A stretch of DNA of 64,000 bases from an uncultured Methanosarcinales archaeon (GTDB lineage Archaea; Nanobdellota; Nanobdellia; Woesearchaeales; CALCXY01), in assembly GCA_964385185.1 (NCBI GenBank), contig CAYLOA010000001.1, forward strand, positions 12,507 to 76,506, given 5' to 3'. Below the pieces are notes generated by a model that was not told the origin of the DNA, searched no databases, and saw only the letters and a list, made by a program, of their open reading frames with translations. The position numbers were made by a program, and so were the translations under genes. This document shows, one piece after another, positions 20,280 through 36,738 of this stretch (its first letter is position 1; every line of letters begins with the position of its first letter).

Positions 20280-20378
20280 GGTTGAAAATTCTACGTAAAC
20301 TCCTCCATTTTTATTCTTGAATCATTTTTTTGTATCATTTTTTTGATTTTTCAACTTTGTGGACATCAGTCCACATAT

Positions 20379-21179: not shown

Positions 21180-21185
21180 ATAAAA

Positions 21186-22493: not shown

Positions 22494-22672
22494 TATACAT
22501 ATTACAGAAGTTATGATATTTAAAAGTGCCTAATCGTCTAAAGTCCATCACAAATCCAAACATTTATATACATAAAAAAGTACATAATTACATATCATTT
22601 TAAGAATATAGAAATATACATAAAATTATACATAATAAACCTAAAAACTACCCATCAAGAAGGAAATAAACC

Positions 22673-22819
22673 ATGAAATTACAATACGACACCAATAATC
22701 AGTTCAAAGTAACTCTTCCTAAGAAGATTCTAGAAGCTATGGGCTGGAAAAAAGGAGATAAAATCAAAGTTGAGTTAGATGCTTTCAACAACTTAGTTCT
22801 AAAAAATGAAGATAAATAA
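22673..22819 (+). CDS. small AbrB/SpoVT-family DNA-binding protein (48 aa)
   Basis: MKLQYDTNNQFKVTLPKKILEAMGWKKGDKIKVELDAFNNLVLKN is a looped-hinge-helix signature. It overlaps the next gene by 14 nt. It is below the ORF-track cutoff. Confidence 0.5.
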   Translation: MKLQYDTNNQFKVTLPKKILEAMGWKKGDKIKVELDAFNNLVLKNEDK

Positions 22820-23576
22820 CATCCTAAAAAGAAAAAACAACTCCAAGAAAGGAGATCATGGTAGAGTCCTCATTGTAGGAGGATCAGAAAAATACGTAGG
22901 TGCACTTACCTTAGCAGGGATTGCAGCCCTAAGAATTACTGATTGGGTCACCATAGCAGCACCAGAAAAAGTGGCTTGGGCAATTAACACTCTAAGCCCA
23001 GACCTCGTAACAGTAAAACTCAAAGGAACTCACATTCAATCTTCACATATTAAGAAACTTACACGTCTTGCGAAGGGGCATGACGTATTACTGCTTGGCA
23101 TCGGTATGGGTCTTACATCAAATAGTACAGCGAGAGCCCTCGCCAAACTCCCATTACCGAAGGTGATTGATGCCGATGCCCTAAAAGCAGTTTCAATAAA
23201 ACAAACAAAAAACGCAATACTTACTCCACACCAAAAGGAATTCACAACGTTACTAAAGAATTCAAAATTAAATAAAAATAATTTCCAAAAAGAACTCAAA
23301 GAAAACATCCTACTCATCAAAGGACCAAGGGATTTTATTTTTTCCCAAAAAAAACAGAAAATAAACAACAAAGGTAATCCAGGAATGACAAGAGCAGGCA
23401 CAGGGGATGTCCTTGCAGGAGTTATTGCTGGATTGTTAGCAAGAAAGGTGTCATTGTTCAATGCTGCAGACCAAGGGGTTCTACTTACCACTAAAGCAGC
23501 CGACCAGTTGAACAAGAAACATAAATATTGTTATCTTGCATCTGAACTAGCAGATGATATCAAGAGGTACATCTAA
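22806..23576 (+). CDS. ADP-dependent NAD(P)H-hydrate dehydratase (YjeF C-terminal/carbohydrate kinase-like)
   Basis: GDHGRVLIVGGSEKYVGALTLAGIAALR and GTGDVLAGVIAGLLAR motifs. Confidence 0.75.
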   Translation: MKINNILKRKNNSKKGDHGRVLIVGGSEKYVGALTLAGIAALRITDWVTIAAPEKVAWAINTLSPDLVTVKLKGTHIQSSHIKKLTRLAKGHDVLLLGIGMGLTSNSTARALAKLPLPKVIDADALKAVSIKQTKNAILTPHQKEFTTLLKNSKLNKNNFQKELKENILLIKGPRDFIFSQKKQKINNKGNPGMTRAGTGDVLAGVIAGLLARKVSLFNAADQGVLLTTKAADQLNKKHKYCYLASELADDIKRYI

Positions 23577-25303
23577 TGACGGGCATATTTGTTGATATGG
23601 GGGTTATCATCATTGCTGCCACTATATTAGGTATCGTCTTTAGGTTCATAAAACAACCATTAATTCCTGCCTATGTGTTAGCAGGAATAATTCTAGGGCC
23701 CAAGATACTCGGAATCATAACTGACTTTGAAGTCATCAAAGTATTAGGGGAAATTGGTATTGCATTTCTATTGTTCGTTGTAGGAATCGAATTAGACTTC
23801 TCAAAACTCAAAGATATTGGGTGGATTGCCTCGATCGGTGGAACCATAAAAACAGTCATTATGTTCTCAATGGGATACATCATTGCCATCTACTCAGGCG
23901 TCTTTGTCCATATTGAAGCAATCTATGTAGGATTAATCGTTGCATTCTCCTCAACCATGATTGTCATCAAACTACTTGCCGATAAAAGAGAGATTGACAC
24001 CCTTCATGGAAGAATTGTGATTGGAATCTTACTACTAGAAGATTTCCTAGCCATCCTTGCCATGTCAATGTTGGGGTCAATTAACGATGTTACGGTGATG
24101 TTCCTCTTTGTAGCTGCATTAAAAGGATTCTTCATCTTTGCCATGATACTGTTCTCCTCAAGATTCATTTTCCCACTGTTATTCAAATTCGCAGCTAAAT
24201 CTCAAGAATTATTATTCCTATTATCTGTAACCACCCTTTTCATCTTTGCAATCGGAATAAACTACATGGGATTCTCAATTGCAATTGGAGCATTCGCAGC
24301 AGGAGTAGCTATTGGAAACCTACCTTACAACTTTCAGATCATCGGGAAAATTAAACCACTGAGAGACTACTTCGCAACATTATTCTTTGCAACATTAGGG
24401 CTAGAATTGGTATTCACTTCAGTAGAAACCATTATTGTGCCATTATTAATCTTATTATTCTTAGTGGTAGTCTTAAAACCTTTAGTAGTAATCGTAATCA
24501 CTTCGGTCTTTGGATACACCAGAAAAACATCCTTCATGGCAGGAATAAACCTAGCCCAAGTATCAGAATTCTCCTTAATAATTGTAGCAGAAGGAATGCT
24601 TATTGGTCAGATTAGTAGAGAAATTTTCTCAATTGCAGTTATCCTTGCCATTATTACAATCGTTATGACTTCATATTTCGTAAAATTCGATAAAGGATTA
24701 TATAGGATTGTAAAACCATTCCTTAAACCCCTAAACTTAATCAGAACCAAAAAGAAAAAACTATCCTACATGCCCAACGAAGGAAAATATAAAGCAATCC
24801 TCTTAGGATATGACCGAATTGGATTCTCAATTATGAAAGCTTTCAAAAAACTCAATAAAAAATTCATCGTGGTAGACTTCAATCCCGATATTATCAAGAG
24901 ATTAATTAAAGAAAAAATCCCGTGTATCTATGGTGATATTGGAGATCTCGAAATATTGGAAAGACTTGATCTTAATCGTGCTGAAATTGTCATTTCAACC
25001 GTCCCAGAACTAAAAGATAACAAAAATCTTATTTCCTATGTCAAAGAAAGAAACAAAAGAGCCTCCATTTTCGTAACAGCCAATAGAATACATGAAGCAT
25101 TGGATCTCTATGAAGCAAAAGCAGACTATGTAATCCTCCCACATTTCCTCGGAGGACACCACGTATCCTTAATGTTAGAAAATACCACAGGAAATCTCTC
25201 CTCATTATTAAAAAATAAGATTAATCACATTACAGAGTTAAAAAAGAGAAAAGACATGGGATTCGAACATCCTAAAGTAAGAAGGGATAAGGAAGAAACC
25301 TAA
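23576..25303 (+). CDS. monovalent cation:proton antiporter (CPA2/Kef-type) with C-terminal RCK/TrkA-N domain
   Basis: About 12 TM helices followed by a Rossmann-like RCK domain (KAILLGYDRIGFSIMKAF...VVDFNPD). It overlaps the upstream stop as TAATG. Confidence 0.85.
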   Translation: MTGIFVDMGVIIIAATILGIVFRFIKQPLIPAYVLAGIILGPKILGIITDFEVIKVLGEIGIAFLLFVVGIELDFSKLKDIGWIASIGGTIKTVIMFSMGYIIAIYSGVFVHIEAIYVGLIVAFSSTMIVIKLLADKREIDTLHGRIVIGILLLEDFLAILAMSMLGSINDVTVMFLFVAALKGFFIFAMILFSSRFIFPLLFKFAAKSQELLFLLSVTTLFIFAIGINYMGFSIAIGAFAAGVAIGNLPYNFQIIGKIKPLRDYFATLFFATLGLELVFTSVETIIVPLLILLFLVVVLKPLVVIVITSVFGYTRKTSFMAGINLAQVSEFSLIIVAEGMLIGQISREIFSIAVILAIITIVMTSYFVKFDKGLYRIVKPFLKPLNLIRTKKKKLSYMPNEGKYKAILLGYDRIGFSIMKAFKKLNKKFIVVDFNPDIIKRLIKEKIPCIYGDIGDLEILERLDLNRAEIVISTVPELKDNKNLISYVKERNKRASIFVTANRIHEALDLYEAKADYVILPHFLGGHHVSLMLENTTGNLSSLLKNKINHITELKKRKDMGFEHPKVRRDKEET

Positions 25304-25352
25304 GAAAGATTAATAAACTCTCCACACTAAGGAGAAATGAAGAAAAAAGAAA

Positions 25353-26909
25353 ATGGCAGACGTTTGGAACCCACACTTGGAAGCTTCATCTAAAATATTG
25401 ATGAAGTTTGGATTTATTAAGAAAGAGTATGCTAAAGAGTACTCCATTCTTCCAGAAAAAGAGAGAAATAAGAAAATAGACAATCTAACAGAAGATGAAG
25501 CAGACAAACAAGCTGATTTGGATGAAGAAGAGGTAGGAAAAGATCAATTAGTCTTAGTAAATTTCCCCAAACCTACACATAAATATAGATTAGTGTATGA
25601 AACACACAAAGGAAACATAGAGGAAACCTATTTTTGGATTCTTAACTATCTCAGATATGATATGCACTTCACCCAGATTGAAAAAATAACAGATATCTTT
25701 GCAGCTGCTGAAACAAGTGCGTTTGAAGGTGTGAGACAACAACGAGTAGGACTCCAACAAGACAAAGTCTCTGGATTTTTAGCCACCATTGGAAAAATGG
25801 TCAAAGAATTGTTCCAATTAGTGAGAGAACTTAGAATTATCGATGAAAGATTGGCCTACTATGAAGACTCATTCACCACATCTAAAAGTCATGAGAGTGC
25901 TGAAATCACATTGAAAGGTATTTGGATCGATCAAGTAGAGGGAGGATCAAAAAACCCAGCTTCCATTTTCGGATTATCTAAAGAACTACAATTTACAACA
26001 TTACCTGATCTCTTTTTTGCAATCCACCCTAAAGAACCAACCGATGTGGATGAAGTTGTGGATGCACTAGAATTCAATCGAAAGGTCAAAGAAGTCCTCA
26101 AAAGAAAATTAAGATCATTTATGGAATGGAAAGTAAGAACCTATGATGAGATGAAAAATAGAAGAATTTTCACCATTCAATATCTGAGACAACACTTTGA
26201 TATCATCAAAATGTATATGCAATGGGTAAAACCCTACTTAAGAACCATCAAAAGATTAGGATACGACATTAAGAAGACAAAATCTCCTGATCTTGTTGCC
26301 GCTTTCGAAGGATCCATGATTGAGGTAGAATTTGCTGGAGTATTCTACCCAAGAGGAAACAAAGAGTATAGAACTGTCTTGGTCATGCATTTTGACCTAC
26401 GTACACGTCCACAGATGAACTTTCAGGCAGAAGGATACAATCGAGGCCCACTACATACAGGAGAAGCTAAAGTCACCTGGAGAGGGTATACCTGGACCGA
26501 TGAAGAACTCAAAAAATACATTGGTATGCGAGAATCAGAAGACATGGAGTTATTAGCTTCCGTAGATCGATCAGTAGAAGCAGCCATGGAAGCTTTAGGA
26601 GATGAACTAGAAGGATATCTGCAACAAGCAGGAGAAGATATCTCCTTTGAAAAAGAACTAAAAGGAAAAAAGAAAGAAAAAGAGAAGCCAAAAATGCCAG
26701 GATTATTTGATCCGTTATTTTCAGTCTTCAAAGGAGTAGGTGATGCAGCTAAGTTTGCAACACCTGACATTAAGATGAAAAAAAAGAAAGCAACATTAAG
26801 TTCCTATCAAAAAGAAAAAGAAATTGCTGCTGCTAAAAAAGATTTAGTAGTAAGAATGTGGACTTGTTATAAAAATTACAAGAAGAGTCATAAAATGATT
26901 GCGTGGTAA
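25353..26909 (+). CDS. hypothetical protein (518 aa), first gene of uncharacterised operon
   Basis: Long complex ORF with no recognisable motif. The C-terminus is K/E-rich. Confidence 0.6.
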   Translation: MADVWNPHLEASSKILMKFGFIKKEYAKEYSILPEKERNKKIDNLTEDEADKQADLDEEEVGKDQLVLVNFPKPTHKYRLVYETHKGNIEETYFWILNYLRYDMHFTQIEKITDIFAAAETSAFEGVRQQRVGLQQDKVSGFLATIGKMVKELFQLVRELRIIDERLAYYEDSFTTSKSHESAEITLKGIWIDQVEGGSKNPASIFGLSKELQFTTLPDLFFAIHPKEPTDVDEVVDALEFNRKVKEVLKRKLRSFMEWKVRTYDEMKNRRIFTIQYLRQHFDIIKMYMQWVKPYLRTIKRLGYDIKKTKSPDLVAAFEGSMIEVEFAGVFYPRGNKEYRTVLVMHFDLRTRPQMNFQAEGYNRGPLHTGEAKVTWRGYTWTDEELKKYIGMRESEDMELLASVDRSVEAAMEALGDELEGYLQQAGEDISFEKELKGKKKEKEKPKMPGLFDPLFSVFKGVGDAAKFATPDIKMKKKKATLSSYQKEKEIAAAKKDLVVRMWTCYKNYKKSHKMIAW

Positions 26910-26918
26910 ATCGAAAAA

Positions 26919-27506
26919 ATGCCAAAACTAGACGAATTAAAAAAATTACATCCTGAAGATAGATTGAAGAGGTTAAAAGAATTAGAAAAAGAAAGAAAAG
27001 AAGAAATTGAAGAAGCAAAAGAGATGGTTAAACAATCTAATGAAGAGATTGCCGAAGAAGACCTCATCAAACGGATGAATCCTCCTGAAGCTGAAGAAAT
27101 ACAAGTAGAAAAACTATTCAGACCTCGAGAAGAACCTATCGAATCAAAAGTAGAACCCTTAAAACCTGAAGTTGAAGAAGAAGCTTCTTTAGAATCAGAA
27201 TTAAGTGGTGTCCCTTCACTCCCTCCAGAACAAGAGATTGCTCAAACAGCTATGTATCAAGTAAATCAACTTGAACAAGATCTAAGAGGACAATCAACCG
27301 ATTCCATCTATAAATCCATGTCTACTATGATGGAACAACCGCAAGATTCCATGTCACAATACCAAAGAAATAAAATAGAAGCAGCATATAATATCATGAA
27401 AGAGCGAGATGACCTCTACGGAGACTCAGCTGGTCAAAAAATTCAAGGATCAGCATCCAAGATACTCTCTTTACATGAAAGAATAAAACAGGACTACCAA
27501 AGCTAA
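26919..27506 (+). CDS. hypothetical acidic coiled-coil protein (195 aa)
   Basis: Starts 10 nt after the previous stop. Composition is E/K-rich (KRLKELEKERKEEIEEAKEM...). Confidence 0.55.
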   Translation: MPKLDELKKLHPEDRLKRLKELEKERKEEIEEAKEMVKQSNEEIAEEDLIKRMNPPEAEEIQVEKLFRPREEPIESKVEPLKPEVEEEASLESELSGVPSLPPEQEIAQTAMYQVNQLEQDLRGQSTDSIYKSMSTMMEQPQDSMSQYQRNKIEAAYNIMKERDDLYGDSAGQKIQGSASKILSLHERIKQDYQS

Positions 27507-27507
27507 A

Positions 27508-29613
27508 ATGCAATTTAACCAATCGTACCAATCACCGATGGAAAAGCCGGAAGTCATTGATCTAGATAACCATGCACCGTATTCTGCCGAAAGGCATGAA
27601 GAACCCGATATTGAGAAGCCTATTTTCCCTATGAATCGTCTGGGACAATCAGTAACAGAAGGATCACGATTTGGATCATTCTTCCAGACTGCTACCGGAG
27701 CAATTAGAGCAGGAGCAGGAAAAGTAGAATTACAACTGGGTATGGGTGGAGGCGCCGAACCCGTAGGAGCTGAAGCATATGGAGTTGAAGCAAGAGAAGC
27801 CCTGAGAGAAATGGCCAAAGCAAATCAAGTTGAATTCTCATCAGTCCACTCACCATCACAAATTGGAAACATGAGTGGTTTCGCAGGACCAGAAAGAGGA
27901 TTTGATGATGCACAAAGAAAGGTAGAGTTAGATGAAGTAAAATCAGCCATAGACTTTGCCGCAGATACAGCAGGAAAAGGGGCAGTTGTTGTCCACACAG
28001 GAGAATATCAGAGACCTATTTCAGAAGCAGCTTGGGCCCATGATGAGGAAGGTAATAGAATCTTCACAGGATATGAAGAAGAGGAAGAACGTGCAATCCT
28101 CCCATTAGTAGATAAAAGAACAGGAAGTGTTATCCAACAAGTGAGGAAAAACCAAATAGTTGCAAGAGCACAATGGAATAGGTATGACGAGACCAATAAA
28201 AAATTACAAGGAGAAAAACATGGAGAATCTTATGTGGATGATAAAGGTCAACACGTTGATCAAGGGGATTATGTCGACTATGAAGGAAACAAAGTAAATT
28301 TCAAAGATCGAGTTCCTGTCTATGACGAAGAAAAAAATACCTTCATTGTTAAGCAACAAAAATGGGAAGATTTCGAACAAGAAGCTGATGAACGAAATAG
28401 GGAATTAGCGAGAGAATTAGGAAAAGATATGAGTGAATTAACAGATGAGGAAAGAATTACACCAGAAAAAGCCTTATTGATAGCTACCACAGAAACGCAA
28501 GAAAAGATTGCAGAAGGATGGGCAGATAATTACGGATTACGATTACGAGATACCTTCAAAGAAATTGATAAATTGAAACATGCTCTTGCCCATTGGAAGA
28601 AAGTGGAAGAATCCGTTCCTGAAGATGATCAATATCAACTTTTACAAGGAGAATCAGGAAAACAGTTTTCACAACAGACCAATTTAATCCCAGAAGAAAG
28701 AAAATTACCTTCAGAAATTATTGCAAAAAATTTGAATAATTCAAGAGAAGAAATTGAGTCCTTAAAAGAAATGGTTACCGGTCAAAAACAACAAGCTGAA
28801 GAGGCAAGAATCCAAAGAGAAAACGCAATCACCATTGAAAACTATGCAAAAAATAAATCCATTAAATCATATGCTGAATTAGGAATATACGCCCTGGATG
28901 TATCTGCAGATAATCCTCACACAAAAGGAGATTTGTTTATTGCTGCAGAAAATATTTTCCCAGAAATGGGATATGGATCACATCCACAAGAAATGACTGA
29001 ATTGATCCAAAAATCTAGGAAAAAAATGGCAGAACAATTAGTCACGAGTAGAAATTTCTCAGAAGAACAAGCTCAACAAGCAGCCGAAGAACACATTAAA
29101 GCGACCATTGATCTTCAACATTTAGGGATGTGGAGGAAAAACTTTGTAGCGCAAGGCGATGAATCTAAACAAGAAACAGATCAACGTTTTGAAAAATGGT
29201 ATATGGAAGAATTCAAAAAAATGGAAGAGAAAGGTATTATCGGACATATGCACGTTGTTGACGGTTTTGGAAGACAACATACTCACTTGCCCCCTGGCCA
29301 AGGAACGTTACCAATTAAAGAAGCATTACAATATCTGAAGAAAAAAGGATACAAAGGAGATCTTACTTCAGAAGGTTTTGCTGAAGGACAATTCGGCCCA
29401 GCTAGAATTATTTCTAAATTCTGGGAGACGAATGGGTCACCCATCTATTCAAAAGGATTTAGTGGAACTACAGGCGCTGCATCATCACCTCAATCTAAAT
29501 GGTCTAATGTTGAACACTCTTATTTTGGACAGACATACTCACCTAACTTCGTCTTTGGCTCATATAGTCCAAGTAATGATTGGTCATTATGGTCACAGAC
29601 TCCAATGGAATAA
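27508..29613 (+). CDS. xylose isomerase-like TIM-barrel (AP endonuclease family 2-like) protein with large charged insertion
   Basis: Starts 2 nt after the previous stop. By eye, VHSPSQIGNMSGF, AVVVHTGEY, ALDVSADNPH/LFIAAENIF, GHMHVVDGFGRQHTHLPPGQGTLP and LTSEGF resemble the metal-binding strands of Nfo and sugar-phosphate-isomerase barrels. Residues roughly 170-455 are charged low-complexity sequence. Confidence 0.55.
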   Translation: MQFNQSYQSPMEKPEVIDLDNHAPYSAERHEEPDIEKPIFPMNRLGQSVTEGSRFGSFFQTATGAIRAGAGKVELQLGMGGGAEPVGAEAYGVEAREALREMAKANQVEFSSVHSPSQIGNMSGFAGPERGFDDAQRKVELDEVKSAIDFAADTAGKGAVVVHTGEYQRPISEAAWAHDEEGNRIFTGYEEEEERAILPLVDKRTGSVIQQVRKNQIVARAQWNRYDETNKKLQGEKHGESYVDDKGQHVDQGDYVDYEGNKVNFKDRVPVYDEEKNTFIVKQQKWEDFEQEADERNRELARELGKDMSELTDEERITPEKALLIATTETQEKIAEGWADNYGLRLRDTFKEIDKLKHALAHWKKVEESVPEDDQYQLLQGESGKQFSQQTNLIPEERKLPSEIIAKNLNNSREEIESLKEMVTGQKQQAEEARIQRENAITIENYAKNKSIKSYAELGIYALDVSADNPHTKGDLFIAAENIFPEMGYGSHPQEMTELIQKSRKKMAEQLVTSRNFSEEQAQQAAEEHIKATIDLQHLGMWRKNFVAQGDESKQETDQRFEKWYMEEFKKMEEKGIIGHMHVVDGFGRQHTHLPPGQGTLPIKEALQYLKKKGYKGDLTSEGFAEGQFGPARIISKFWETNGSPIYSKGFSGTTGAASSPQSKWSNVEHSYFGQTYSPNFVFGSYSPSNDWSLWSQTPME

Positions 29614-29695
29614 GCCATAGAGTTGATAATTCTAGCTCAAAGTATAAACATTTATAAAGATAAAAGCAATTTATTCTATTAGTGCGTGGTTTATT

Positions 29696-32623
29696 ATGAT
29701 ATCAAATGTAAAAACACTATTCCATAGTCCAACTATAGTATCAGCGCCAGCTGCACAGTTTCATGCACACTTTTTTTCTGAAGAACAATTTTTAACAGGT
29801 GAAGGAGAATTAAAAAGTACTCCTGTGAGTAAAAAAACTTCTGATGAATCCAGATTGTTTGTAAGACTTGAAATTTCAGGTCCTAGCCTTGTTGCAAGAA
29901 TTGTAAGCGAATATGCACAACCTGGAATTGTAAATAAAGTTATGCAATCACTCTATTCTATTGATAGATCAGCAGCTTCTCTAGTAAATACTGAAAAATC
30001 ACAATCCTATCAACATGCAATTCAAACAGAATTTCCTACAATTAAGAGTAGACCTGCTGCAAATTATAATATTGAAGCTAAAGAAAAACCTGCAATAATT
30101 CATGAATTGCAACCTGCTCCAGAAGCACAAGTGCAAGTCTATGTCCCTCAAGATGTTTTAGTACAAACTACAGAAAGAGAGTTTGAACAAACAACAAAAA
30201 TAAAGGAACAACTCTACGCACAATATAATAATGATCAGGTATCAAGTTATCAGGCTACTCATGAATCACATATGAATGAAAATCCATTCTATCAAGTTTC
30301 AGGATTACATCTCCTTCAAGAAAAAGACATTGTAGAATATAATCCTAATCAACCTGAAAATAGAGAGATGGATGAAAGAAAGATTGAATATACTGCTCAG
30401 CCACAGATAGAAAATATCAAAAATAATTATTTAGAACACAATGCTGTATCATTTGAATTACCTATATTCAATCAAGAAAAAGAAATTCTACGACCTCAGA
30501 GAGATTTTGAACAGAGAAAAAATAACTATCAACCAAAGGAAAAAATAAGAAGAGACTTTCCAACATATACTAAAATTGATATGTCAATTGACTTAGAAAA
30601 TCCTACTAGAGATCATAGTCTAGATACAGAATCAATATCATATGAAATAACTGCAGAAACTTCAACTCCAATACATCAAACTTCAAGATTAGAAGCAAAA
30701 ATCCAACCACAAAATCAAACTGAAACATACACAGCAAAATCTACTCAAGAGAGACAATCTTCAGATATTACTTGGGAAGTACAGTCTTCTGAAGATGCAC
30801 GTCCTTTTCTTGGACATTCAATTGAATACTCTCACAAAACAGATTCTACTCCATCTCGTGATACAGATTACTCAGAACCAGCTATCACATACTCAGAAGA
30901 AGAAAGATTAGAAATTAAACTTGATCAAGATCCACATAAAGAAAATAACGAAAGACAGCCAAAAAGAAAAAGAGAATATCACCAGAAGAAGGAATCCAAA
31001 AAAGAACCTACTAAAAAATCTCATAAAATTGAATACAAAGATAATCCAACAACATCAACATATGAACAAAAGAAAGAATATACAGCAGAACCAACTAAAA
31101 TACATGAATTCAGAGAAAAAGAATTGAATATTCCAGAGTTTAGAAATGAATCTCATGAATTTCAATATCAAAAAGCAAAAGAAATTAAAACAGAAGTAAT
31201 CAAAAGTAACCAATTTGAAAAAAGAAATGAAGAATATGATTCTCCAGAATTAAAGGATACAAAAATCCATGACTTTAATCAATATAAAATAAAAAACAAT
31301 GCTTACACATCTAATCTAGATTCATTAGTCACAGAAAGTGAAGTTGAATCAGCACCACCTTGTGCTGTGAATTCATTAGAAACTGACAAGCCATGTACTG
31401 TAAATAGTTTAGAAAATATTGAAGACGGAACCTCTATAGTGGGTATTGTAAAAACAACTCAGGCAAATAACTGTTATGCACCTAAAACAGAAGAATTTTC
31501 AAAAGTAGAATCAACAAGAGATTTTGAATCATTTGGAGTGGACATATTAGCACAAAAAGGAATCGAATCAGTTGAAGATTTAATTGATAAAGAAGGAAAT
31601 ATTGACATAACAAAATTCGGAGATTCATATTCCTTACTGGGTGGAGGAGTAATGATAACCATCACAGAAGAGCAAGAAAATAGTTCTTTCGCATATGGAA
31701 TTAGAGGACAAGATAGATCAGATGTGGGAACTACCTATACAGGCATGGCAAATGAAGTAGGAGCTATACTCTTTAAAATCTTTGAAAAAAATGGTTTAAC
31801 CTTAGACATCACCACAATGGATGAAATCATTGAAGGAGAAAACTACACCGGTTCAAATCTTTATGTCACCGAAGTTACCGGTGGAAAAAGAGGATTAGAG
31901 AAAAAATTAAACCAAGTGATAGGTAAAGAAATAACTATTAACGATGTTCAATATTCAATTGTAGTAAAAGATGCTACAACAGGCCAAGAAATCTCTTGTA
32001 ACGCTTCTACAGGATTAACACAAGGAAACTACACTATAGATGTTATTACTAAAATTGGATCTGCAAATTTACAATCAGAAGTGTCTATGTCATTAGATGA
32101 AATAAACCTTGATAGGAACTTAGATAATGGATATGAAACTCCAAAATTTGCACATCTTGTCCATGAAGACACCGGAGAAAGACTTGATGGATATGCACTC
32201 CCAGAATTGGCATTTGAGTCTAATGGATATGAAACCATCATGGATCAATTCATAAGTTCATTAGAATCTGCAAATGCAGACTTTGAAGTAAAAACAATGA
32301 ACACACAAGAATATGGACAGGAGAAAGGAACCAACTTAAGATATGTTCGAACCATTGAAGGAGTGATTGACAATTATATGAAATTACACCCTAATGCACA
32401 AAAAGAAAAAGTAGGAATCTTATTAATGGAAACTGAATCTGGAAAAATTATGAGAGAACCAGGATATGGCGCTGAAGGATTGGACTATGCAGAAAAAGCT
32501 GGAAAGTCATATGTCCCAGTAATTTATGAATTAGGTGCTGATTTATCAAACTCACATGTTGAATTGCCTAAGCAAAATCGTGAAAATACAATTGATACCA
32601 TCTTCTCTAACTTAGCAGCATGA
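29696..32623 (+). CDS. hypothetical protein (975 aa) with central Q/E/N/K-rich disordered region and about 430-aa C-terminal globular domain
   Basis: No signal peptide. Contains a short internal repeat (PPCAVNSLETDKPCTVNSLEN). It overlaps the downstream methyltransferase by 4 nt (ATGA). Confidence 0.6.
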   Translation: MISNVKTLFHSPTIVSAPAAQFHAHFFSEEQFLTGEGELKSTPVSKKTSDESRLFVRLEISGPSLVARIVSEYAQPGIVNKVMQSLYSIDRSAASLVNTEKSQSYQHAIQTEFPTIKSRPAANYNIEAKEKPAIIHELQPAPEAQVQVYVPQDVLVQTTEREFEQTTKIKEQLYAQYNNDQVSSYQATHESHMNENPFYQVSGLHLLQEKDIVEYNPNQPENREMDERKIEYTAQPQIENIKNNYLEHNAVSFELPIFNQEKEILRPQRDFEQRKNNYQPKEKIRRDFPTYTKIDMSIDLENPTRDHSLDTESISYEITAETSTPIHQTSRLEAKIQPQNQTETYTAKSTQERQSSDITWEVQSSEDARPFLGHSIEYSHKTDSTPSRDTDYSEPAITYSEEERLEIKLDQDPHKENNERQPKRKREYHQKKESKKEPTKKSHKIEYKDNPTTSTYEQKKEYTAEPTKIHEFREKELNIPEFRNESHEFQYQKAKEIKTEVIKSNQFEKRNEEYDSPELKDTKIHDFNQYKIKNNAYTSNLDSLVTESEVESAPPCAVNSLETDKPCTVNSLENIEDGTSIVGIVKTTQANNCYAPKTEEFSKVESTRDFESFGVDILAQKGIESVEDLIDKEGNIDITKFGDSYSLLGGGVMITITEEQENSSFAYGIRGQDRSDVGTTYTGMANEVGAILFKIFEKNGLTLDITTMDEIIEGENYTGSNLYVTEVTGGKRGLEKKLNQVIGKEITINDVQYSIVVKDATTGQEISCNASTGLTQGNYTIDVITKIGSANLQSEVSMSLDEINLDRNLDNGYETPKFAHLVHEDTGERLDGYALPELAFESNGYETIMDQFISSLESANADFEVKTMNTQEYGQEKGTNLRYVRTIEGVIDNYMKLHPNAQKEKVGILLMETESGKIMREPGYGAEGLDYAEKAGKSYVPVIYELGADLSNSHVELPKQNRENTIDTIFSNLAA

Positions 32624-33135
32624 AATCTATTCAAGAATATTTCAAACAAGAAGACTCTAATTCTTTAGAAGAACATAATCTACCTTACGTCTATACAAAT
32701 AAAGGTGTATGGGCAGGAGCAAATCTAGAGGCATTAGAAGAATTCTTTAAACTCATAAAACTAGAATCCTTCAAATCATTTATAGACTTAGGGTGTGGTG
32801 ATGGGAGAGTTACCATCATGGCAGGCAATTTTACAAATGCTCTTGGCATTGAATCCGACATGAATCTTATAGGCAAAGCCCATAAAGCCATAAAAGAATT
32901 TAACAGCAAAGCTGAAGTAAAAATGGGAGACTTTTTTGATCTTGACCTTGCAAAATTCGATATCATTTTTATAAATCCAGATAAAGGATTCAATTATGGA
33001 TTAGAAAAAAAATTAATGAATGAACTAAAGGGCACGTTAGTAGTGTACAATAACTTATTTCTACCCAGATTTCTAAAACAAGGAGAAACCCATGTGTGTA
33101 AGGAAATTCCCATTACACTGTATACACAAGATTAA
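32620..33135 (+). CDS. small class I SAM-dependent methyltransferase
   Basis: Motif I is IDLGCGDGRV, with an acidic residue after beta-2 (IESD). Length is only 171 aa. Confidence 0.6.
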   Translation: MKSIQEYFKQEDSNSLEEHNLPYVYTNKGVWAGANLEALEEFFKLIKLESFKSFIDLGCGDGRVTIMAGNFTNALGIESDMNLIGKAHKAIKEFNSKAEVKMGDFFDLDLAKFDIIFINPDKGFNYGLEKKLMNELKGTLVVYNNLFLPRFLKQGETHVCKEIPITLYTQD

Positions 33136-33229
33136 TCATTCTATAATAGTAAACAAACCTTATATACGCTTTTCTTAAAATAAGAGGTGGAGGGGAATAA
33201 AGAGTAGTTTAACTTAGAAAAAGCACTAC

Positions 33230-34036
33230 ATGGTAAAATTCAAAATAGAGCGGAGAGATCATCCTCAAGTAAAGAGATATTCCTCTGAAGAGATTAAAAT
33301 AGCTAGAAAACTAGCAGACAGAATTTTAGAAGAATTTGGTTCATTTGTGAAATCAATTGTATTATTTGGATCTGCAGCGAGAGCTCAAGGTAAATCAAAA
33401 CCAGGCGATGTAGATGTATTAGTCATTGTAAACGATCTGAATATGGTCCTCAGTGGAGAAGCAGTAGAGACATACAGAGTTATCATGGAAAGATTAGTAC
33501 GTGACACATCAGATAGATTACACGTGACCACATTAAAACTATCCAACTTCTGGGATTATGTAAGATTAGGAGATCCTTTAGCAATTAATATCTTAAGAGA
33601 TGGAGTAGCTTTGATTGATACAGGAATCTTTGATCCTATGCAAGCATTGCTCTATATGGGAAGAATACGTCCTACCTATGAAGCTATCTTCACCTACTAC
33701 TCACGAGCACCTGCTACATTAGCAAACTCAAAATGGCACGTGTTACAAGCAACATTAGACCTGTACTGGGCAGTAATAGATGCTGCGCATGCAGCGTTAA
33801 TGAAACATGGTGAAATACCTCCATCTCCTGCTCACGTAGCAGATATGATGGAAAAAACTTTAGTTAAAGATAACCTTATTGAAAAACGATATGTAACTAC
33901 TATGAAAGATTTCTATGTCTTAGCTAAGAAAATCATGCACAGAGAATTAAAAGAAGTAACAGGAAAACAATTTGATCAATACTATAAACTTTCTGAAGAT
34001 TTTGTTAAAAGAATAAAGAAAATTATTGAACCATGA
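33230..34036 (+). CDS. nucleotidyltransferase (Pol-beta superfamily) with C-terminal helical domain
   Basis: LFGSAARAQGKSKPGDVDVLVIV matches the GS...DxD nucleotidyltransferase motif. A helical domain of about 160 aa follows. Confidence 0.6.
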   Translation: MVKFKIERRDHPQVKRYSSEEIKIARKLADRILEEFGSFVKSIVLFGSAARAQGKSKPGDVDVLVIVNDLNMVLSGEAVETYRVIMERLVRDTSDRLHVTTLKLSNFWDYVRLGDPLAINILRDGVALIDTGIFDPMQALLYMGRIRPTYEAIFTYYSRAPATLANSKWHVLQATLDLYWAVIDAAHAALMKHGEIPPSPAHVADMMEKTLVKDNLIEKRYVTTMKDFYVLAKKIMHRELKEVTGKQFDQYYKLSEDFVKRIKKIIEP

Positions 34037-34658
34037 ACATCTGAATATTCTACCAAAACCTTTTAAATGTCCATCTAATCCTATTACTATGTCATTCGAA
34101 GAACAAAAGAAAGTACAACTCGAAAAAAAGGATGCTTCTATTCAAGGAGAGATTGACATTGAAATTAGATATTTAGTAGACAAATTAAACGAGTATCCTT
34201 TCTTCTACACCACATCAAGTTGTGCAGGAAGAACATTACTGTTATCCAAAAAATCTGATAAAAAGTTTAACATTCAATGGATATACAAAGATCATAAAGA
34301 AGCAAACCTGAAAAAAATACAGGAAACTCTGAAAGAATTGCCAGATAATCCTGTCTGGATCAAACAAGAATCTGCAATACTCCACATCTGTTGTAAAGAT
34401 ATGGAAACAGCAGAAAGATTATTAGTTATTTGTAAAAATACGGGATTTAAATTCTCAGGAATATTATCAACAAAGAAAAGAATCATTGTCCAAGTAATGT
34501 CAAGTGAGAATTTAGAAACAATAGTCGCAGACAAAAAACAACTCTTAATCTCAGAAGAATATCTCATAAGATTAGTAGATGAATGCAATAAAAGAATGGA
34601 AAGAAATATATCTAGAATTAAGAGATTACATGACGGAATAGTTGAGGAGTTCAAATGA
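34026..34658 (+). CDS. taw3: tRNA wybutosine-synthesizing protein 3 homologue (Taw3/TYW3)
   Basis: The conserved TYW3 signature FFYTTSSCAGR is present. Length 210 aa. Confidence 0.7.
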   Translation: MNHEHLNILPKPFKCPSNPITMSFEEQKKVQLEKKDASIQGEIDIEIRYLVDKLNEYPFFYTTSSCAGRTLLLSKKSDKKFNIQWIYKDHKEANLKKIQETLKELPDNPVWIKQESAILHICCKDMETAERLLVICKNTGFKFSGILSTKKRIIVQVMSSENLETIVADKKQLLISEEYLIRLVDECNKRMERNISRIKRLHDGIVEEFK

Positions 34659-34990
34659 GCAAAGCATTAACACTATTATTAGTAAGATTAACACTCTCAA
34701 CTATTTTCATGCTTCAAGGTCTTTCAAATATCATTTGGCCTGATTATAGATTTGCAATACTAATAGGGATAATTGAAGCAATAGCCTCTATACTTCTTTT
34801 TTATGGCTTTTACAATAAACTTACGTCAATTATTCTAGGATTTCTGATGCTAGGAGCAATTGCCACCATACACTTACCAGAATCAGTAAAGCAATTAACA
34901 TTCACTCAAGGATTACAAGCCGATCTTATGATTTTTGTAGCTTGTTTTGTGATTTACTTCTTTGACGATCATGACGATTACGGAATGTGA
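34655..34990 (+). CDS. DoxX-like small membrane protein
   Basis: Three to four TM helices. Overlaps taw3 by 4 nt. Confidence 0.5.
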   Translation: MSKALTLLLVRLTLSTIFMLQGLSNIIWPDYRFAILIGIIEAIASILLFYGFYNKLTSIILGFLMLGAIATIHLPESVKQLTFTQGLQADLMIFVACFVIYFFDDHDDYGM

Positions 34991-35429
34991 GATATCCTAA
35001 TAATCCTACAACAAACACTACAAAACTCAACACAGGACCAAGATTTCTTTTAATTTTAGGAATTATTCTAAGAGTAGAGGATACCTGATAGGATTTTGAA
35101 TCTTTTGCAAAAACCTGAACATACAATTCAGGAAAGATATCCAATCCTGATGAAGGTGCACCAGAAAAACCTATAGTAAAAATATCATCACTATACTTTT
35201 CTTGGACCAAAGTAACTCTTTTTTCACTAAAAGAATCTATACTTCCTTGGGAGGGATTCCCCATATAAGATCTCCCAAGCAAAGAATAATTCACAGGGAA
35301 AGGATTTTGATTAAAAATAATAATCTCTCCCGCCTCCCCATCAGCTAAATACAATTCATTCGGTGCCACACCCAGTTGTTGACCCATTACCAAAGGTAAA
35401 CAAAGCAAAAATACAAATAAATACTTCAT
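34926..35429 (-). CDS. secreted protein with C-terminal TM anchor, unknown function
   Basis: N-terminal signal peptide and a C-terminal hydrophobic helix followed by basic residues. Confidence 0.5.
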   Translation of the reverse strand: MKYLFVFLLCLPLVMGQQLGVAPNELYLADGEAGEIIIFNQNPFPVNYSLLGRSYMGNPSQGSIDSFSEKRVTLVQEKYSDDIFTIGFSGAPSSGLDIFPELYVQVFAKDSKSYQVSSTLRIIPKIKRNLGPVLSFVVFVVGLLGYLTFRNRHDRQRSKSQNKLQKS

Positions 35430-35430
35430 T

Positions 35431-36645
35431 CTAACGACCTATGGCTTGAATAGCCAGTGCAGTGGTATATAACCCACTCGTGGCATTCTGAGGTATGATA
35501 AACTTTAAACTAAGTGGAATAGTTGCATCCAATCCTAAATTAATATTCTTTAGTAAATTCTGTGAAGCAGAGGAGAAATCTATCCCATTAAAACTAAACA
35601 GTGTATCACTAAAACTTCTCCCTTCACTGACATTTTTAGCACGAACACTCAAATCTAAAGGAATATTTCCAATATTTTTTATCGTAGGACTATCTGTGGT
35701 ACTTACTTTTTCGTCCCCTTTGATAAAAACCTCTTCACCGGGTCGTGCCTTTTGAACACTAATTGCAGAAGTGTCTAAAAAAATACCGGCCAAAGGCAAT
35801 ACAGTGACCGCAAATTGAAGAGGTAGTGTGGTATGTTTGCCCGTGGCGGTAATCGTGATATTATACTCTCCTGGTAATTGGTGATACCAAAAGGAAAACG
35901 TTCCAGTGTATTGAGAATGACTGTCATTAAGAGTTGCACCTTCCAATAAAACTGTTGAATTAAATATGTCCATCTTCACAGAAGTTATGACATCATTTCC
36001 TCCAAGAGTTATGTTTACAAAAACAGATCTCTTTTTTCCAGGAACAGGACTCACCTGTACTCCTTCTGAAAATAAATCGTCATCAATAGTAAAATTATAC
36101 AATGATAGTGTGTAAGCCTCTACTTCAACAGAAATAAGTAAAAGTCCATCAGATTGAACTGTACTACTGTTTCTTGGATCTGGTGAAAGAGCCTCAAATG
36201 TATTCGTATAACTTCCATTATCTAATTTTCTTTGTAAAGATTCTCTCACATCAACTGCATCTTCTCCCCAAGTTACTGTATCAACTATCTTTTCACCATC
36301 TAGAAGAGAAACAAATCCATCATCATTTGCAAGTGTTATCGCTTCAGCATAATCTGATTCATCCCAATTGAGATCGTCTCGTTTCTCCCATCCTGTATCA
36401 GTGACCAAATAATAAGAACCAGGAAGAATATGAGCTTCTGAAGGTAAGGTTACATCTTTAACAGAAGATTTAGTTGATAGAACCCATTCACTTATGGAAA
36501 CAGTAGTATCACCATTATTAAACAACTCTACAAACTCTCCTCCATTCTCTGTCCCCTTGGGATCAAAATAGACCTCAGTGATTAAAACTTCAGCCTGAAC
36601 AACACCACAAACTAATAATAACATAATTACTGCAATAATTCTCAT
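35431..36645 (-). CDS. secreted lamin-tail-domain (LTD) protein with Ig-like domains
   Basis: After a signal peptide, LITEVYFDPKGTENGGEFVELFNNGDTTVSISEWVLS matches the LTD consensus (I-EV...EFVEL-N-G...LSGW-L). Confidence 0.65.
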   Translation of the reverse strand: MRIIAVIMLLLVCGVVQAEVLITEVYFDPKGTENGGEFVELFNNGDTTVSISEWVLSTKSSVKDVTLPSEAHILPGSYYLVTDTGWEKRDDLNWDESDYAEAITLANDDGFVSLLDGEKIVDTVTWGEDAVDVRESLQRKLDNGSYTNTFEALSPDPRNSSTVQSDGLLLISVEVEAYTLSLYNFTIDDDLFSEGVQVSPVPGKKRSVFVNITLGGNDVITSVKMDIFNSTVLLEGATLNDSHSQYTGTFSFWYHQLPGEYNITITATGKHTTLPLQFAVTVLPLAGIFLDTSAISVQKARPGEEVFIKGDEKVSTTDSPTIKNIGNIPLDLSVRAKNVSEGRSFSDTLFSFNGIDFSSASQNLLKNINLGLDATIPLSLKFIIPQNATSGLYTTALAIQAIGR

Positions 36646-36738
36646 CGAAACACTCCAGAACCCAAATAATATGATAGAAAAAGTCCTTAATAAATCTTTA
36701 CAAAAAAAACTGGAAGAATTTCCGAAAAAAGAAAAAAA

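What the first reader, a model, noticed from the sequence alone, without database searches (positions are those of the whole stretch)
25353..33135. Operon of four large uncharacterised low-complexity proteins plus a small methyltransferase
Five plus-strand genes are packed with intergenic gaps of 10 and 2 nt and an ATGA overlap: a 518-aa protein, a 195-aa acidic coiled-coil protein, a 701-aa split TIM barrel, a 975-aa protein and a 171-aa SAM methyltransferase. None has a signal peptide. Three contain long E/K/Q-rich regions that are likely coiled-coil or disordered. The only recognisable catalytic folds are the TIM barrel and the methyltransferase. The block lies between housekeeping genes (KefB upstream, nucleotidyltransferase/Taw3 downstream) and has no mobile-element hallmarks. 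This looks like a lineage-specific, possibly undescribed intracellular system, structural or nucleic-acid-related.
Basis: partly seen in the sequence, partly recalled or inferred. Interest (0 to 1): 0.75.

Follow-up and report, generated by a model that had tools for sequence, protein, structure and literature searches.

The report
Conserved Woesearchaeota four-gene enzyme module
Four of the five genes (a strongly conserved protein with no known relatives, a small acidic helical protein, a metal-dependent TIM-barrel enzyme with a 300-residue insert, and a small methyltransferase) stay together across hundreds of Woesearchaeota genomes, probably as one undescribed enzyme complex; the 975-aa protein is a rare add-on.

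Summary
The five plus-strand ORFs exist at the stated coordinates. The "low-complexity operon of five" picture is only partly right.

- **Conserved genes.** P1 (518 aa), P2 (195 aa), P3 (701 aa) and P5 (171 aa) are conserved in Woesearchaeota/Nanoarchaeota MAGs. P1 relatives occur in at least 512 species genomes.
- **Linkage.** Of 51 loci with enough downstream sequence, P3 follows P1 in 38, P2 in 36 and P5 in 26. Three different gene orders occur, and one locus has unrelated flanks. This points to a functional module, not frozen synteny.
- **P1 and P2.** Neither matches any Pfam, NCBIfam or PDB family. P1 has no global fold analogue.
- **P5.** It resembles archaeal aKMT/Dot1-like methyltransferases.
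- **P4 (975 aa).** It is absent from all 90 related loci. Only its C-terminal about 315 aa has a handful of relatives.

Best reading: a lineage-specific cytoplasmic metalloenzyme complex. The substrate is unknown; a macromolecular phosphoester is a weak preference. Module: high confidence. Mechanism: inferred.

The parts
25353..26909 (+). P1, 518 aa: the anchor protein of the module. It belongs to a family with no Pfam, NCBIfam or PDB relative and is 50-60% identical across Woesearchaeota.
25518..26627 (+). P1 folded core (aa 56-425). It has an alpha/beta part (strands 56-118 and 321-381) and two very long helices (125-173, 243-302).
26637..26906 (+). P1 tail. A Lys-rich linker predicted disordered (aa 429-483) carries a conserved PFxSxFKGFGE motif. 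It is followed by a conserved basic/aromatic terminal helix, MWxxYKNYKKAHxMLxW-COOH.
26919..27506 (+). P2, 195 aa, pI 4.7: an acidic helical protein. Its conserved N-terminal motif is ELKKLSPEERIKRLKELEE..KKEIEEA, followed by IPxPQ...VDI..LF. The linker is variable.
   Evidence: No known family.
27508..29613 (+). P3, 701 aa: a xylose-isomerase-like (AP_endonuc_2) TIM-barrel metalloenzyme split by an insert.
27625..28017 (+). P3 barrel, N-terminal half (aa 40-170, strands b1-b4). It holds the invariant H114 and H163 (VVHTGE).
28018..28917 (+). P3 insert (aa 171-470). It has a beta-rich subdomain (about 180-285) and long helices (286-304, 319-369, 401-438, 443-468). It is conserved family-wide.
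28918..29445 (+). P3 barrel, C-terminal half (aa 471-646, strands b5-b8). It holds E481, D535, H538, H582, H591, H593 and E622.
29446..29613 (+). P3 C-terminal tail (aa 647-701 plus stop). It is unstructured in the monomer model, yet its end (the last ~30 residues) is highly conserved: SYFG..PPYFIFGAYSPSNDWTLWSQVPME-COOH. It is probably a docking peptide.
   Evidence: It occurs once per locus in the 54 fetched sequences that carry it (the window and related loci).
29614..29695 (.). 82-nt spacer with a TATA-like TTTATAAA at 29651-29658. It may be an internal promoter for P4-P5.
   Evidence: Read from the sequence. This is inference only; such motifs are frequent in 35% GC DNA.
29696..32623 (+). 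P4, 975 aa, pI 4.9: a lineage-specific accessory gene occupying a variable slot. It is not part of the conserved module.
31619..32569 (+). P4 C-terminal domain (aa 642-958). This is the only part of P4 with relatives: 11 representatives among 1.84 billion proteins, E from 1e-35 to 4e-4, attached to unrelated long N-terminal regions.
32620..33135 (+). P5, 171 aa: a small class-I SAM methyltransferase (DLGCGDG motif). It resembles archaeal aKMT/Dot1-like enzymes and is the fourth module member.

Best explanation
P1, P2, P3 and P5 form a Woesearchaeota-wide, chromosomal, single-locus functional module. It most likely encodes a cytoplasmic multi-subunit metalloenzyme.

**Shown**
- The four genes stay adjacent across species-level genomes, in three gene orders and in unrelated flanks.
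- P3 is a xylose-isomerase-like (beta/alpha)8 barrel. Its putative metal ligands are invariant.
- A conserved, folded 300-aa module is inserted between barrel strands 4 and 5.
- P1 and P2 have no known relatives.

**Inferred**
- P3 is the catalytic subunit.
- The long helices of P1, P2 and the P3 insert hold the proteins together.
- So do the conserved short motifs that lie in predicted-disordered segments: the P1 PFxSxFKGFGE motif and terminal helix, the P2 IPxPQ..VDI..LF motif, and the P3 N- and C-terminal peptides.
- The 9-nt and 1-nt spacers suggest translational coupling and a fixed stoichiometry.
- P1, with its basic tail and KA1-like alpha/beta part, targets the enzyme to a substrate or location.
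- P5 methylates a lysine of a subunit or of the shared substrate.

**Weakly preferred (about 0.3)**
The nine-position His/Asp/Glu pattern resembles the endonuclease IV / MJ1311 multi-metal site more than a one-metal sugar epimerase site. The chemistry is therefore more likely hydrolysis of a phosphoester in a macromolecule (DNA or RNA) than small-sugar isomerisation.

P4 is an unrelated, fast-evolving accessory gene sitting in a variable slot.
For: **Distribution**
- More than 1,613 P1 relatives, 50-60% identical over about 90% of the length, and none carries a Pfam domain.
- At least 512 species-representative genomes encode one. Nearly all of the 80 listed are labelled Woesearchaeota or Nanoarchaeota, or appear to be mislabelled MAGs.

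**Linkage**
- P3 lies within 6 kb downstream of P1 on the same strand in 42 of 57 loci.
- With HMM detection in 51 loci: P3 in 38, P2 in 36, P5 in 26, all three in 23, none in 3.
- Gene orders: P1-P2-P3-P5 (12 loci), P1-P3-P2-P5 (9), P1-P5-P2-P3 (2).
- L089 has P1-P2-P3-P5 next to S6e and eIF2-gamma instead of KefB/NnrD.

**Evolutionary rate**
Against the 85%-identical relative, P1 is 85% and P3 81% identical. KefB is 85% and NnrD 77%, so P1 and P3 evolve at a housekeeping rate.

**P3**
- Pfam PF01261 scores 57 bits against a cutoff of 31.
- AF2 gives pLDDT 80.7 and pTM 0.78.
- H114, H163, E481, D535, H538, H582 and E622 are present in 120 of 120 relatives. H591 is H in 111 and D in 9. H593 is H in 109, N in 10 and A in 1.
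- The HMM alignment to MJ1311 covers the HxP, VVHxG, HxHxxD...[D/H]xH and E motifs.

**P5**
phmmer gives 1.4e-7 and 1.9e-6 to the Sulfolobus aKMT structures, 5e-8 to a chain annotated as an RNA methyltransferase, and an NF041081 hit at 4e-8.

**P4**
It gives zero hits in 90 related loci.
Against: - No direct evidence shows that the proteins interact. No multimer prediction could be run.
- P2 and P5 are missing from the neighbourhood in 29% and 49% of loci. P3 is missing in 25%. Part of this may be detection failure or relocation.
- Part of the adjacency sits inside a wider syntenic block (NnrD-KefB ... NTase-Taw3) that is conserved in many of these genomes.
- P3's nearest sequence and fold relatives are mostly sugar isomerases and epimerases. 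P3 is acidic (pI 5.1).
- From my own recollection of Uechi et al. 2014, MJ1311 itself lacks a DNA-binding groove.
- The mapping of P3 residues onto E. coli Nfo rests partly on a sequence recalled from memory. Only three of the nine positions were aligned by computation.
Confidence: 0.5

Rival explanations
1. P3 is an ordinary small-molecule sugar or sugar-phosphate isomerase/epimerase. Public annotations already say so. P1, P2 and P5 are functionally unrelated neighbours, or merely accessory.
For: - The four core ligands of these enzymes (Glu, Asp, His, Glu) are invariant in P3.
- JGI and NCBI name some members 'sugar phosphate isomerase/epimerase'.
Against: - Typical family members are 250-300 aa with no insert. 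P3 carries a conserved 300-aa insert and conserved terminal peptides.
- Five further His/Asp/Glu positions are invariant.
- Sequence matches to epimerases cover only the last third of the barrel, at E 0.02-0.04.
- Linkage to P1, P2 and P5 survives gene-order permutation and a change of flanks.
Confidence: 0.2
2. The module is chiefly structural. P1 self-assembles into a cytoskeleton-like, membrane-associated or shell-like scaffold. P2 acts as adaptor, and P3 is recruited through its conserved C-terminal peptide.
For: - P1 is more conserved than most neighbouring enzymes and has no catalytic motif. Conservation of 50-60% over more than 400 aa is typical of proteins with many contact surfaces.
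- It has long helices, a KA1-like alpha/beta part and a basic/aromatic C-terminal helix.
- P3's conserved but unstructured C-terminal peptide resembles a cargo or docking tag.
Against: - No fold similarity to any known filament, coat or shell protein.
- No evidence of oligomerisation.
- DivIVA-like Pfam hits are noise: 7 of 40 members, best E 0.02.
Confidence: 0.12
3. The adjacency is frozen ancestral synteny among related small genomes and carries no functional meaning.
For: - Long syntenic blocks (radical SAM-HIT-HIT-NFACT-DUF1003-NnrD-KefB-...-NTase-Taw3-DoxX-LTD) are shared with close relatives.
- KefB lies upstream of P1 in 32 of 60 loci.
Against: - Three different internal gene orders keep the same four genes together.
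- L089 keeps the module with entirely different flanks. L088 keeps P1-P3 with different flanks.
- The P1-P2 and P2-P3 spacers are 9 and 1 nt.
- The proteins compared are only about 50% identical, a distance at which neutral synteny has usually decayed.
Confidence: 0.08
4. The block is a defence system or mobile island, for example a methylation-associated system, with P4 as its variable specificity component.
For: - The P5 methyltransferase domain hits PADLOC mad2 at 3e-11.
- The slot between P3 and P5 is hypervariable.
- P4 has a fast-evolving N-terminus.
Against: - The mad2 hit covers only the generic methyltransferase fold. No other PADLOC or PHROG hit was found.
- The module is near-universal, single-copy and slowly evolving in the clade. 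That is the opposite of patchy defence islands.
- No relatives in IMG/VR or BFVD.
- The GC content of the block (0.32-0.38) overlaps that of the rest of the window (0.32-0.37).
Confidence: 0.03

Closest known systems
MJ1311 of Methanocaldococcus jannaschii (PDB 3WQO), the 'D-tagatose 3-epimerase-like protein'. It is listed as the predicted endonuclease IV homologue of M. jannaschii in PMC2770678, Table 1.
   Same: - It shares the HxP, VVHxG, HxHxxD and [D/H]xH motifs and the final Glu.
- Its biochemical function is also unknown.
   Different: - MJ1311 is 293 aa with no insert, no conserved terminal peptides, and no known P1/P2 partners.
- P3 is 701 aa, with about 300 aa inserted between strands 4 and 5.
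- P3 has His (111 of 120) where MJ1311 and Nfo have Asp.
Endonuclease IV (Nfo), an AP endonuclease with a three-zinc centre
   Same: - P3 has a nine-position His/His/Glu/Asp/His/His/(Asp->His)/His/Glu pattern at the ends of consecutive strands.
- The H216/D229/H231 region aligns computationally.
   Different: - No NCBIfam or TIGRFAM nfo match.
- 14-17% identity.
- Six of the nine correspondences are inferred from motif and strand position only.
- DNA-binding loops could not be assessed.
D-tagatose/D-psicose 3-epimerases, UlaE and FrlC (one-metal ketose epimerases)
   Same: - Same fold, with the Glu/Asp/His/Glu metal ligands conserved.
- Public annotation of some family members uses this name.
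   Different: - Only the last about 60 aa match at sequence level (E 0.02-0.04).
- These enzymes are about 290 aa and stand alone.
- They lack the extra invariant His residues, the insert and the partner genes.
aKMT / aKMT4, the Dot1-like archaeal protein-lysine methyltransferases (PDB 5FA8, 5JWJ)
   Same: P5 has the same size (171 aa against 161-172 aa). phmmer E-values are 1.4e-7 and 1.9e-6. NF041081 hits at 4e-8 and Pfam DOT1 at 1.7e-4.
   Different: - The score is far below the NCBIfam cutoff (33.5 against 200 bits).
- A chain annotated as an RNA methyltransferase (5BXY) scores as well.
- The substrate is unknown.
Lineage-specific DPANN protein-family modules of unknown function (Castelle et al. 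2021, PMC8204110: 'Module 98', 51 families shared by Woesearchaeota and Pacearchaeota; Meheust et al. 2022, PMC9258230)
   Same: These are bulk catalogues of families that are widespread in Woesearchaeota and lack any functional prediction. P1, P2 and P3 fit that description.
   Different: In the passages my term searches of those papers returned, no gene cluster, structure or mechanism for these families is described. Whether P1-P3 are among the listed families was not checked, because the supplementary tables were not read.

Membership tests
Xylose isomerase-like TIM barrel (Pfam PF01261 AP_endonuc_2), tested on P3 | Match to the family HMM above the gathering threshold | tested here: met
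   57.1 bits against a cutoff of 31.1, in two stretches. All 120 listed relatives carry PF01261.
Xylose isomerase-like TIM barrel (Pfam PF01261 AP_endonuc_2), tested on P3 | (beta/alpha)8 barrel fold | tested here: met
   [not shown]
Xylose isomerase-like TIM barrel (Pfam PF01261 AP_endonuc_2), tested on P3 | Conserved Glu/Asp/His/Glu metal ligands at the ends of strands 5-8 | tested here: met
   E481, D535, H582 and E622 are present in 120 of 120 relatives.
Endonuclease IV (Nfo), tested on P3 | Nine ligands of the trinuclear metal centre (Nfo H69, H109, E145, D179, H182, H216, D229, H231, E261) | tested here: inconclusive
   - Seven candidate positions are invariant and two nearly so; the D229 position is His in 111 of 120.
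- Only H216/D229/H231 aligned computationally.
- The remaining positions are mapped by motif and strand position.
- The Nfo sequence was recalled from memory.
Endonuclease IV (Nfo), tested on P3 | Membership of the curated nfo sequence family | tested here: not met
   No nfo/endonuclease IV model appears among the NCBIfam hits, even at E <= 1. phmmer finds no Nfo chain in PDB.
Endonuclease IV (Nfo), tested on P3 | AP-site cleavage and DNA-binding loops | not testable with these tools
   This needs enzyme assays or a model with DNA bound.
D-tagatose/psicose 3-epimerase family, tested on P3 | Full-length similarity to about 290-aa epimerases | tested here: not met
   Matches cover only aa 575-636, at E 0.02-0.04. 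The profile search gives E 0.005-0.02. A 300-aa insert is present.
Archaeal protein-lysine methyltransferase aKMT (NCBIfam NF041081), tested on P5 | Score above the curated equivalog cutoff | tested here: not met
   33.5 bits against a cutoff of 200. Similarity to the aKMT structures is real but modest (1.4e-7).
Class I SAM-dependent methyltransferase, tested on P5 | Rossmann-like methyltransferase domain with a glycine-rich SAM motif | tested here: met
   Thirteen Pfam methyltransferase families hit aa 24-150; only PF05175 MTS (25.7 bits, cutoff 23) and PF13649 (27.2, cutoff 27) reach their gathering score. The motif IDLGCGDG is invariant in the orthologues compared.
KA1-like alpha/beta domain, tested on P1 | Fold match to KA1 domains | tested here: inconclusive
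   [not shown]
Known anti-phage defence systems (PADLOC) | Hits to system-specific components | tested here: not met
   Only the P5 methyltransferase domain hits mad2. P1-P4 give no hit.
Any described protein family, tested on P1 and P2 | Significant match in Pfam, NCBIfam, PHROGs or PDB sequences | tested here: not met
   - P1: none. Scanning 40 members gives only scattered noise.
- P2: none.

The most novel reading that the evidence does not exclude
P1 is the building block of a previously unknown self-assembling intracellular scaffold or compartment, universal in and specific to Woesearchaeota. P2 links the P3 metalloenzyme to it through P3's conserved C-terminal peptide, and P5 tunes the assembly by lysine methylation. 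That would be a new type of archaeal subcellular organisation built from folds with no known analogue.
Probability: 0.1. Interest if true: 0.85.

Novelty: categorically new. Interest (0 to 1): 0.62.

Why it matters
- **Scale of the unknown.** Woesearchaeota are among the most widespread uncultivated archaea, and most of their lineage-specific genes have no predicted function. This analysis turns anonymous 'hypothetical proteins' into a defined, testable unit: four co-inherited genes.
- **Why it is likely important to the cell.** One gene has an apparently intact metal active site. Two have no detectable relatives or fold analogues. The module is present in at least 512 species genomes and evolves as slowly as housekeeping genes. 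A module that is near-universal, clade-specific and slowly evolving is likely to underlie a core feature of the cell biology of these small archaea.
- **Wider biochemical interest.** It is an example of a xylose-isomerase-like barrel recruited into a multi-protein setting. It may also shed light on the unsolved function of MJ1311-type proteins.
- **Limit.** The function is not established, so the value at present is as a well-delimited target for structural and biochemical work.

Tried and rejected
- **P1 and P2 family searches.** Pfam, NCBIfam, PHROGs and PADLOC on single sequences and Pfam on 40 P1 and 16 P2 family members gave nothing consistent. DivIVA appeared in 7 of 40 at E >= 0.02, which is coiled-coil noise.
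- **PDB sequence searches.** Profile searches for P1, P2 and P4 gave nothing.
- **Homology between P1 and the P3 insert.** hhalign gave probability 0.1, so this was rejected.
- **P3 against E. coli Nfo.** hhalign of the P3 profile against the Nfo sequence was uninformative. A global pairwise alignment aligned only the strand-7 region.
- **P4 as a strict ORFan.** The word-indexed search found only P4 itself. A full HMMER scan then found 11 representatives sharing the C-terminal domain, so the strict ORFan reading was rejected.
- **P4 as an expanded orthologue of the about 200-aa gene that precedes the methyltransferase in relatives.** Only marginal similarity was found: a shared N-terminal 'LFHSPT' (E 0.17), and aa 680-751 against the L087 protein (E 0.036). 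This is left open.
- **Viral or mobile origin.** No IMG/VR relatives of P1, no tandem repeats, and GC typical of the window.
- **Literature.** Searches for MJ1311, xylose-isomerase-like barrels with inserts, Woesearchaeota cell biology and DPANN metaproteomics gave no description of these families.
Full report
**1. The observation**

The window (35% GC) carries five plus-strand ORFs exactly where reported:

| Gene | Coordinates | Length |
|---|---|---|
| P1 | 25353-26909 | 518 aa |
| P2 | 26919-27506 | 195 aa |
| P3 | 27508-29613 | 701 aa |
| P4 | 29696-32623 | 975 aa |
| P5 | 32620-33135 | 171 aa |

- The free spacers are 9, 1 and 82 nt. P4 and P5 overlap by ATGA.
- Upstream lie an NAD(P)HX dehydratase gene and a KefB-type antiporter gene. 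Downstream lie an NTP_transf_2 gene and TYW3.
- The rest of the window is ordinary archaeal chromosome: MetRS, Elp3, PGK, GAPDH, a NOG1-like GTPase, a P-type ATPase and one tRNA-Pro.
- There are no tandem repeats, no GC anomaly and no PHROG or PADLOC hits apart from a PADLOC MTase-domain hit and weak PHROG hits.
- The label 'low-complexity' fits only P2 and the middle of P4. P1 and P3 have normal sequence entropy and are conserved end to end.

**2. What each protein is**

*P1*
- It matches no Pfam, NCBIfam, PHROG or PDB family, either as a single sequence or as a profile.
- It nevertheless has more than 1,613 relatives that are 50-60% identical over about 90% of the length.
- At least 512 species-representative genomes encode a relative. 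Nearly all of the 80 listed are labelled Woesearchaeota or Nanoarchaeota.
- The AF2 model (pLDDT 75) has an alpha/beta part (strands 56-118 and 321-381) and two 50-60-residue helices (125-173, 243-302). A Lys-rich disordered linker with a conserved PFxSxFKGFGE motif follows. The protein ends in a conserved basic/aromatic helix terminating in an invariant Trp.
- Nothing similar was found among viral structures or in IMG/VR.

*P2*
- It is acidic (pI 4.7) with a conserved N-terminal helix (ELKKLSPEERIKRLKELEE..KKEIEEA).
- An IPxPQ..VDI..LF motif follows, then a variable acidic linker and a C-terminal helical part.
- It has no known relatives.

*P3*
- It is a xylose-isomerase-like TIM barrel (PF01261, 57 bits).
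- AF2 (pLDDT 80.7, pTM 0.78) places strands 1-4 at aa 45-163 and strands 5-8 at aa 476-621. Between them lies a confidently predicted insert with a beta-rich subdomain and long helices.
- The termini (aa 1-35 and 647-701) are unstructured in the monomer, yet short stretches within them are conserved: PMDRxY near the N-terminus and ...PPYFIFGAYSPSNDWTLWSQVPME at the C-terminus.
- MJ1311 is also the best sequence hit.
- Across 120 full-length relatives, H114, H163, E481, D535, H538, H582 and E622 are invariant. H591 is H in 111 and D in 9. H593 is H in 109, N in 10 and A in 1.
- These residues sit at the ends of consecutive strands. They form a nine-position pattern like the three-metal site of endonuclease IV, with Asp229 replaced by His. 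Only the H216/D229/H231 segment aligned computationally. The rest is mapped by motif and strand position.
- MJ1311 is listed as the predicted endonuclease IV homologue of M. jannaschii in PMC2770678.
- From my own knowledge, Uechi et al. 2014 reported that MJ1311 conserves those nine residues but lacks a DNA-binding groove. I could not retrieve that paper.

*P5*
- It is a small class-I SAM methyltransferase.
- It is closest to the Sulfolobus aKMT structures (1.4e-7 and 1.9e-6) and to a chain annotated as an RNA methyltransferase (5e-8). It scores far below the curated aKMT cutoff.

*P4*
- The word-indexed search found only P4 itself.
- A full HMMER scan of 1.84 billion representatives found 11 proteins. 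They share only the C-terminal domain (aa 642-958), fused to unrelated long N-terminal regions. None has a Pfam domain.

**3. Conservation of the neighbourhood**

- Using tblastn on 85 fetched loci, P3 lies within 6 kb downstream of P1 on the same strand in 42 of 57 loci with enough sequence.
- With HMM-based detection in 51 non-redundant loci that have at least 7 kb downstream, P3 is present in 38, P2 in 36, P5 in 26, all three in 23, and none in 3.
- The gene orders differ: P1-P2-P3-P5 (12 loci), P1-P3-P2-P5 (9) and P1-P5-P2-P3 (2).
- L089 has P1-P2-P3-P5 tightly packed next to S6e and eIF2-gamma rather than KefB/NnrD. L088 has P1-P3 behind NFACT-YhbY.
- Permuted order with retained adjacency, together with a change of flanks, argues for functional linkage rather than frozen synteny.
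- P4 is never found. In the closest relative (P1 85% identical) its slot holds a 216-aa minus-strand gene and a 201-aa plus-strand gene that overlaps the methyltransferase by ATGA. Another relative has a 195-aa gene there.
- P4 shows only marginal similarity to these genes. The slot between P3 and P5 is therefore a variable region.
- Against that 85% relative, P1 (85%) and P3 (81%) are as conserved as KefB (85%) and more so than NnrD (77%).

**4. How it probably works**

*Shown*
- A four-gene module is conserved and specific to this clade.
- P3 has an apparently intact multi-ligand metal site, a folded conserved insert and conserved terminal peptides.
- P1 and P2 are conserved proteins rich in long helices, with conserved short motifs inside flexible segments.
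- In this genome the spacers between P1, P2 and P3 are 9 and 1 nt.

*Inferred*
- The three proteins assemble through their helical elements and short motifs.
- P3 is the catalytic subunit.
- P1, through its basic tail and alpha/beta part, supplies targeting.
- P5 methylates a subunit or the substrate.

*Substrate*
- I weakly prefer (about 0.3) a phosphoester in a macromolecule over a free sugar.
- The reasons are the extra invariant His ligands shared with endonuclease IV and MJ1311, and the elaborate partner architecture, which a small-molecule epimerase would not need.
- The acidic pI of P3 and the predominance of sugar enzymes among its relatives argue the other way.

**5. Comparison with what is known, and novelty**

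- P3 is a member of the xylose-isomerase-like superfamily. It does not meet the membership tests for Nfo or for ketose 3-epimerases.
- P5 is a class-I methyltransferase that resembles aKMT but cannot be shown to belong to that family.
- P1 and P2 belong to no described family, and P1 has no global fold analogue in PDB.
- Bulk surveys of DPANN proteomes report many Woesearchaeota-specific families of unknown function (PMC8204110; PMC9258230). In the papers I could search I found no description of this gene cluster, its structures or a mechanism.
- I therefore rate the module as not assignable to any known kind of system. Its function remains unresolved.

**6. Verdict**

It is wrong in composition, because P4 is an accessory gene and P1 and P3 are not low-complexity.
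- Confidence in the conserved module is about 0.85.
- Confidence in a physical complex with P3 as the catalytic subunit is about 0.5.
- Confidence in a nucleic-acid or phosphoester substrate is about 0.3.
- Interest: 0.62.

Noticed in passing
L023, L027, L039, L042, L045, L047, L049, L061, L062, L065, L078, L079, L082, L089 (for example L045:11150-11983, minus strand): A gene of about 278 aa with a weak DUF483 match (PF04467, E 1.3e-4) has Cys motifs GYPxCCxxFF and HFPCSFxC. It sits just downstream of the module methyltransferase on the opposite strand in 14 loci, including L089, whose flanks are otherwise different. tblastn finds no homologue in this 64-kb window. It may be a fifth, optional associate of the module.
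   Followed up: partly
window 29614-32623, compared with L086:14356-15719, L087:11195-11782 and L003:14138-15636: The slot between the TIM-barrel gene and the methyltransferase is hypervariable among relatives. It holds the 975-aa P4 here, genes of 216 aa (minus strand) and 201 aa in the closest relative, 195 aa in another, and a DHDPS-family gene plus a 175-aa gene in L003. The roughly 200-aa proteins are weakly similar to one another (E 5e-5).
   Followed up: partly
window 18280-36645, compared with L086 and L087: A long block is collinear with two related marine contigs: radical SAM, two HIT proteins, NFACT, DUF1003, NnrD, KefB, the module, NTase, Taw3, a DoxX-like gene and an LTD-domain protein. 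This shows extensive synteny within this marine Woesearchaeota lineage.
   Followed up: partly
L007, L011-L014, L016, L017 and others; L073: Many species-representative MAGs that carry this Woesearchaeota-type P1 gene are titled 'uncultured Methanosarcinales archaeon' (binchicken/SRP co-assemblies). One is titled 'Candidatus Aminicenantes bacterium'. These are probably taxonomic mislabels or mis-binned contigs.
   Followed up: no
window 33230-34036 and 34026-34658: The 268-aa NTP_transf_2 protein is 53-62% identical across most related loci (44-49% in a few) and 90% identical to the closest relative. It usually sits just downstream of the module and just before Taw3, which it overlaps by 11 nt here. 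Whether it is functionally tied to the module or to tRNA modification is unknown.
   Followed up: no
window 25353-25517 (P1 aa 1-55): An N-terminal extension of about 45 aa (helices confidently predicted, pLDDT 82-91) is present in only a subset of P1 relatives. It carries a loose 'GFIKS..K..Y' motif and is absent from most other Woesearchaeota.
   Followed up: no
window 35431-39144, minus strand: There are two probably secreted or surface proteins. One is 404 aa with a Lamin Tail Domain and an N-terminal hydrophobic leader. The other is 801 aa, Thr/Ser/Asn-rich, with Ig-like/NPCBM_assoc repeats and a C-terminal hydrophobic anchor. They are candidate cell-surface or S-layer components.
   Followed up: no
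window 11435-12385; also L004:1-752, L088:14027-14995, L089:16744-17646: Proteins of about 300-325 aa with an N-terminal MazE/AbrB-like (SpoVT-AbrB) domain recur in these genomes, which makes them unusually long for antitoxin-like proteins. Short MazE-like ORFs (48-59 aa) also lie immediately upstream of the NnrD gene in L003, L086 and L087.
   Followed up: no
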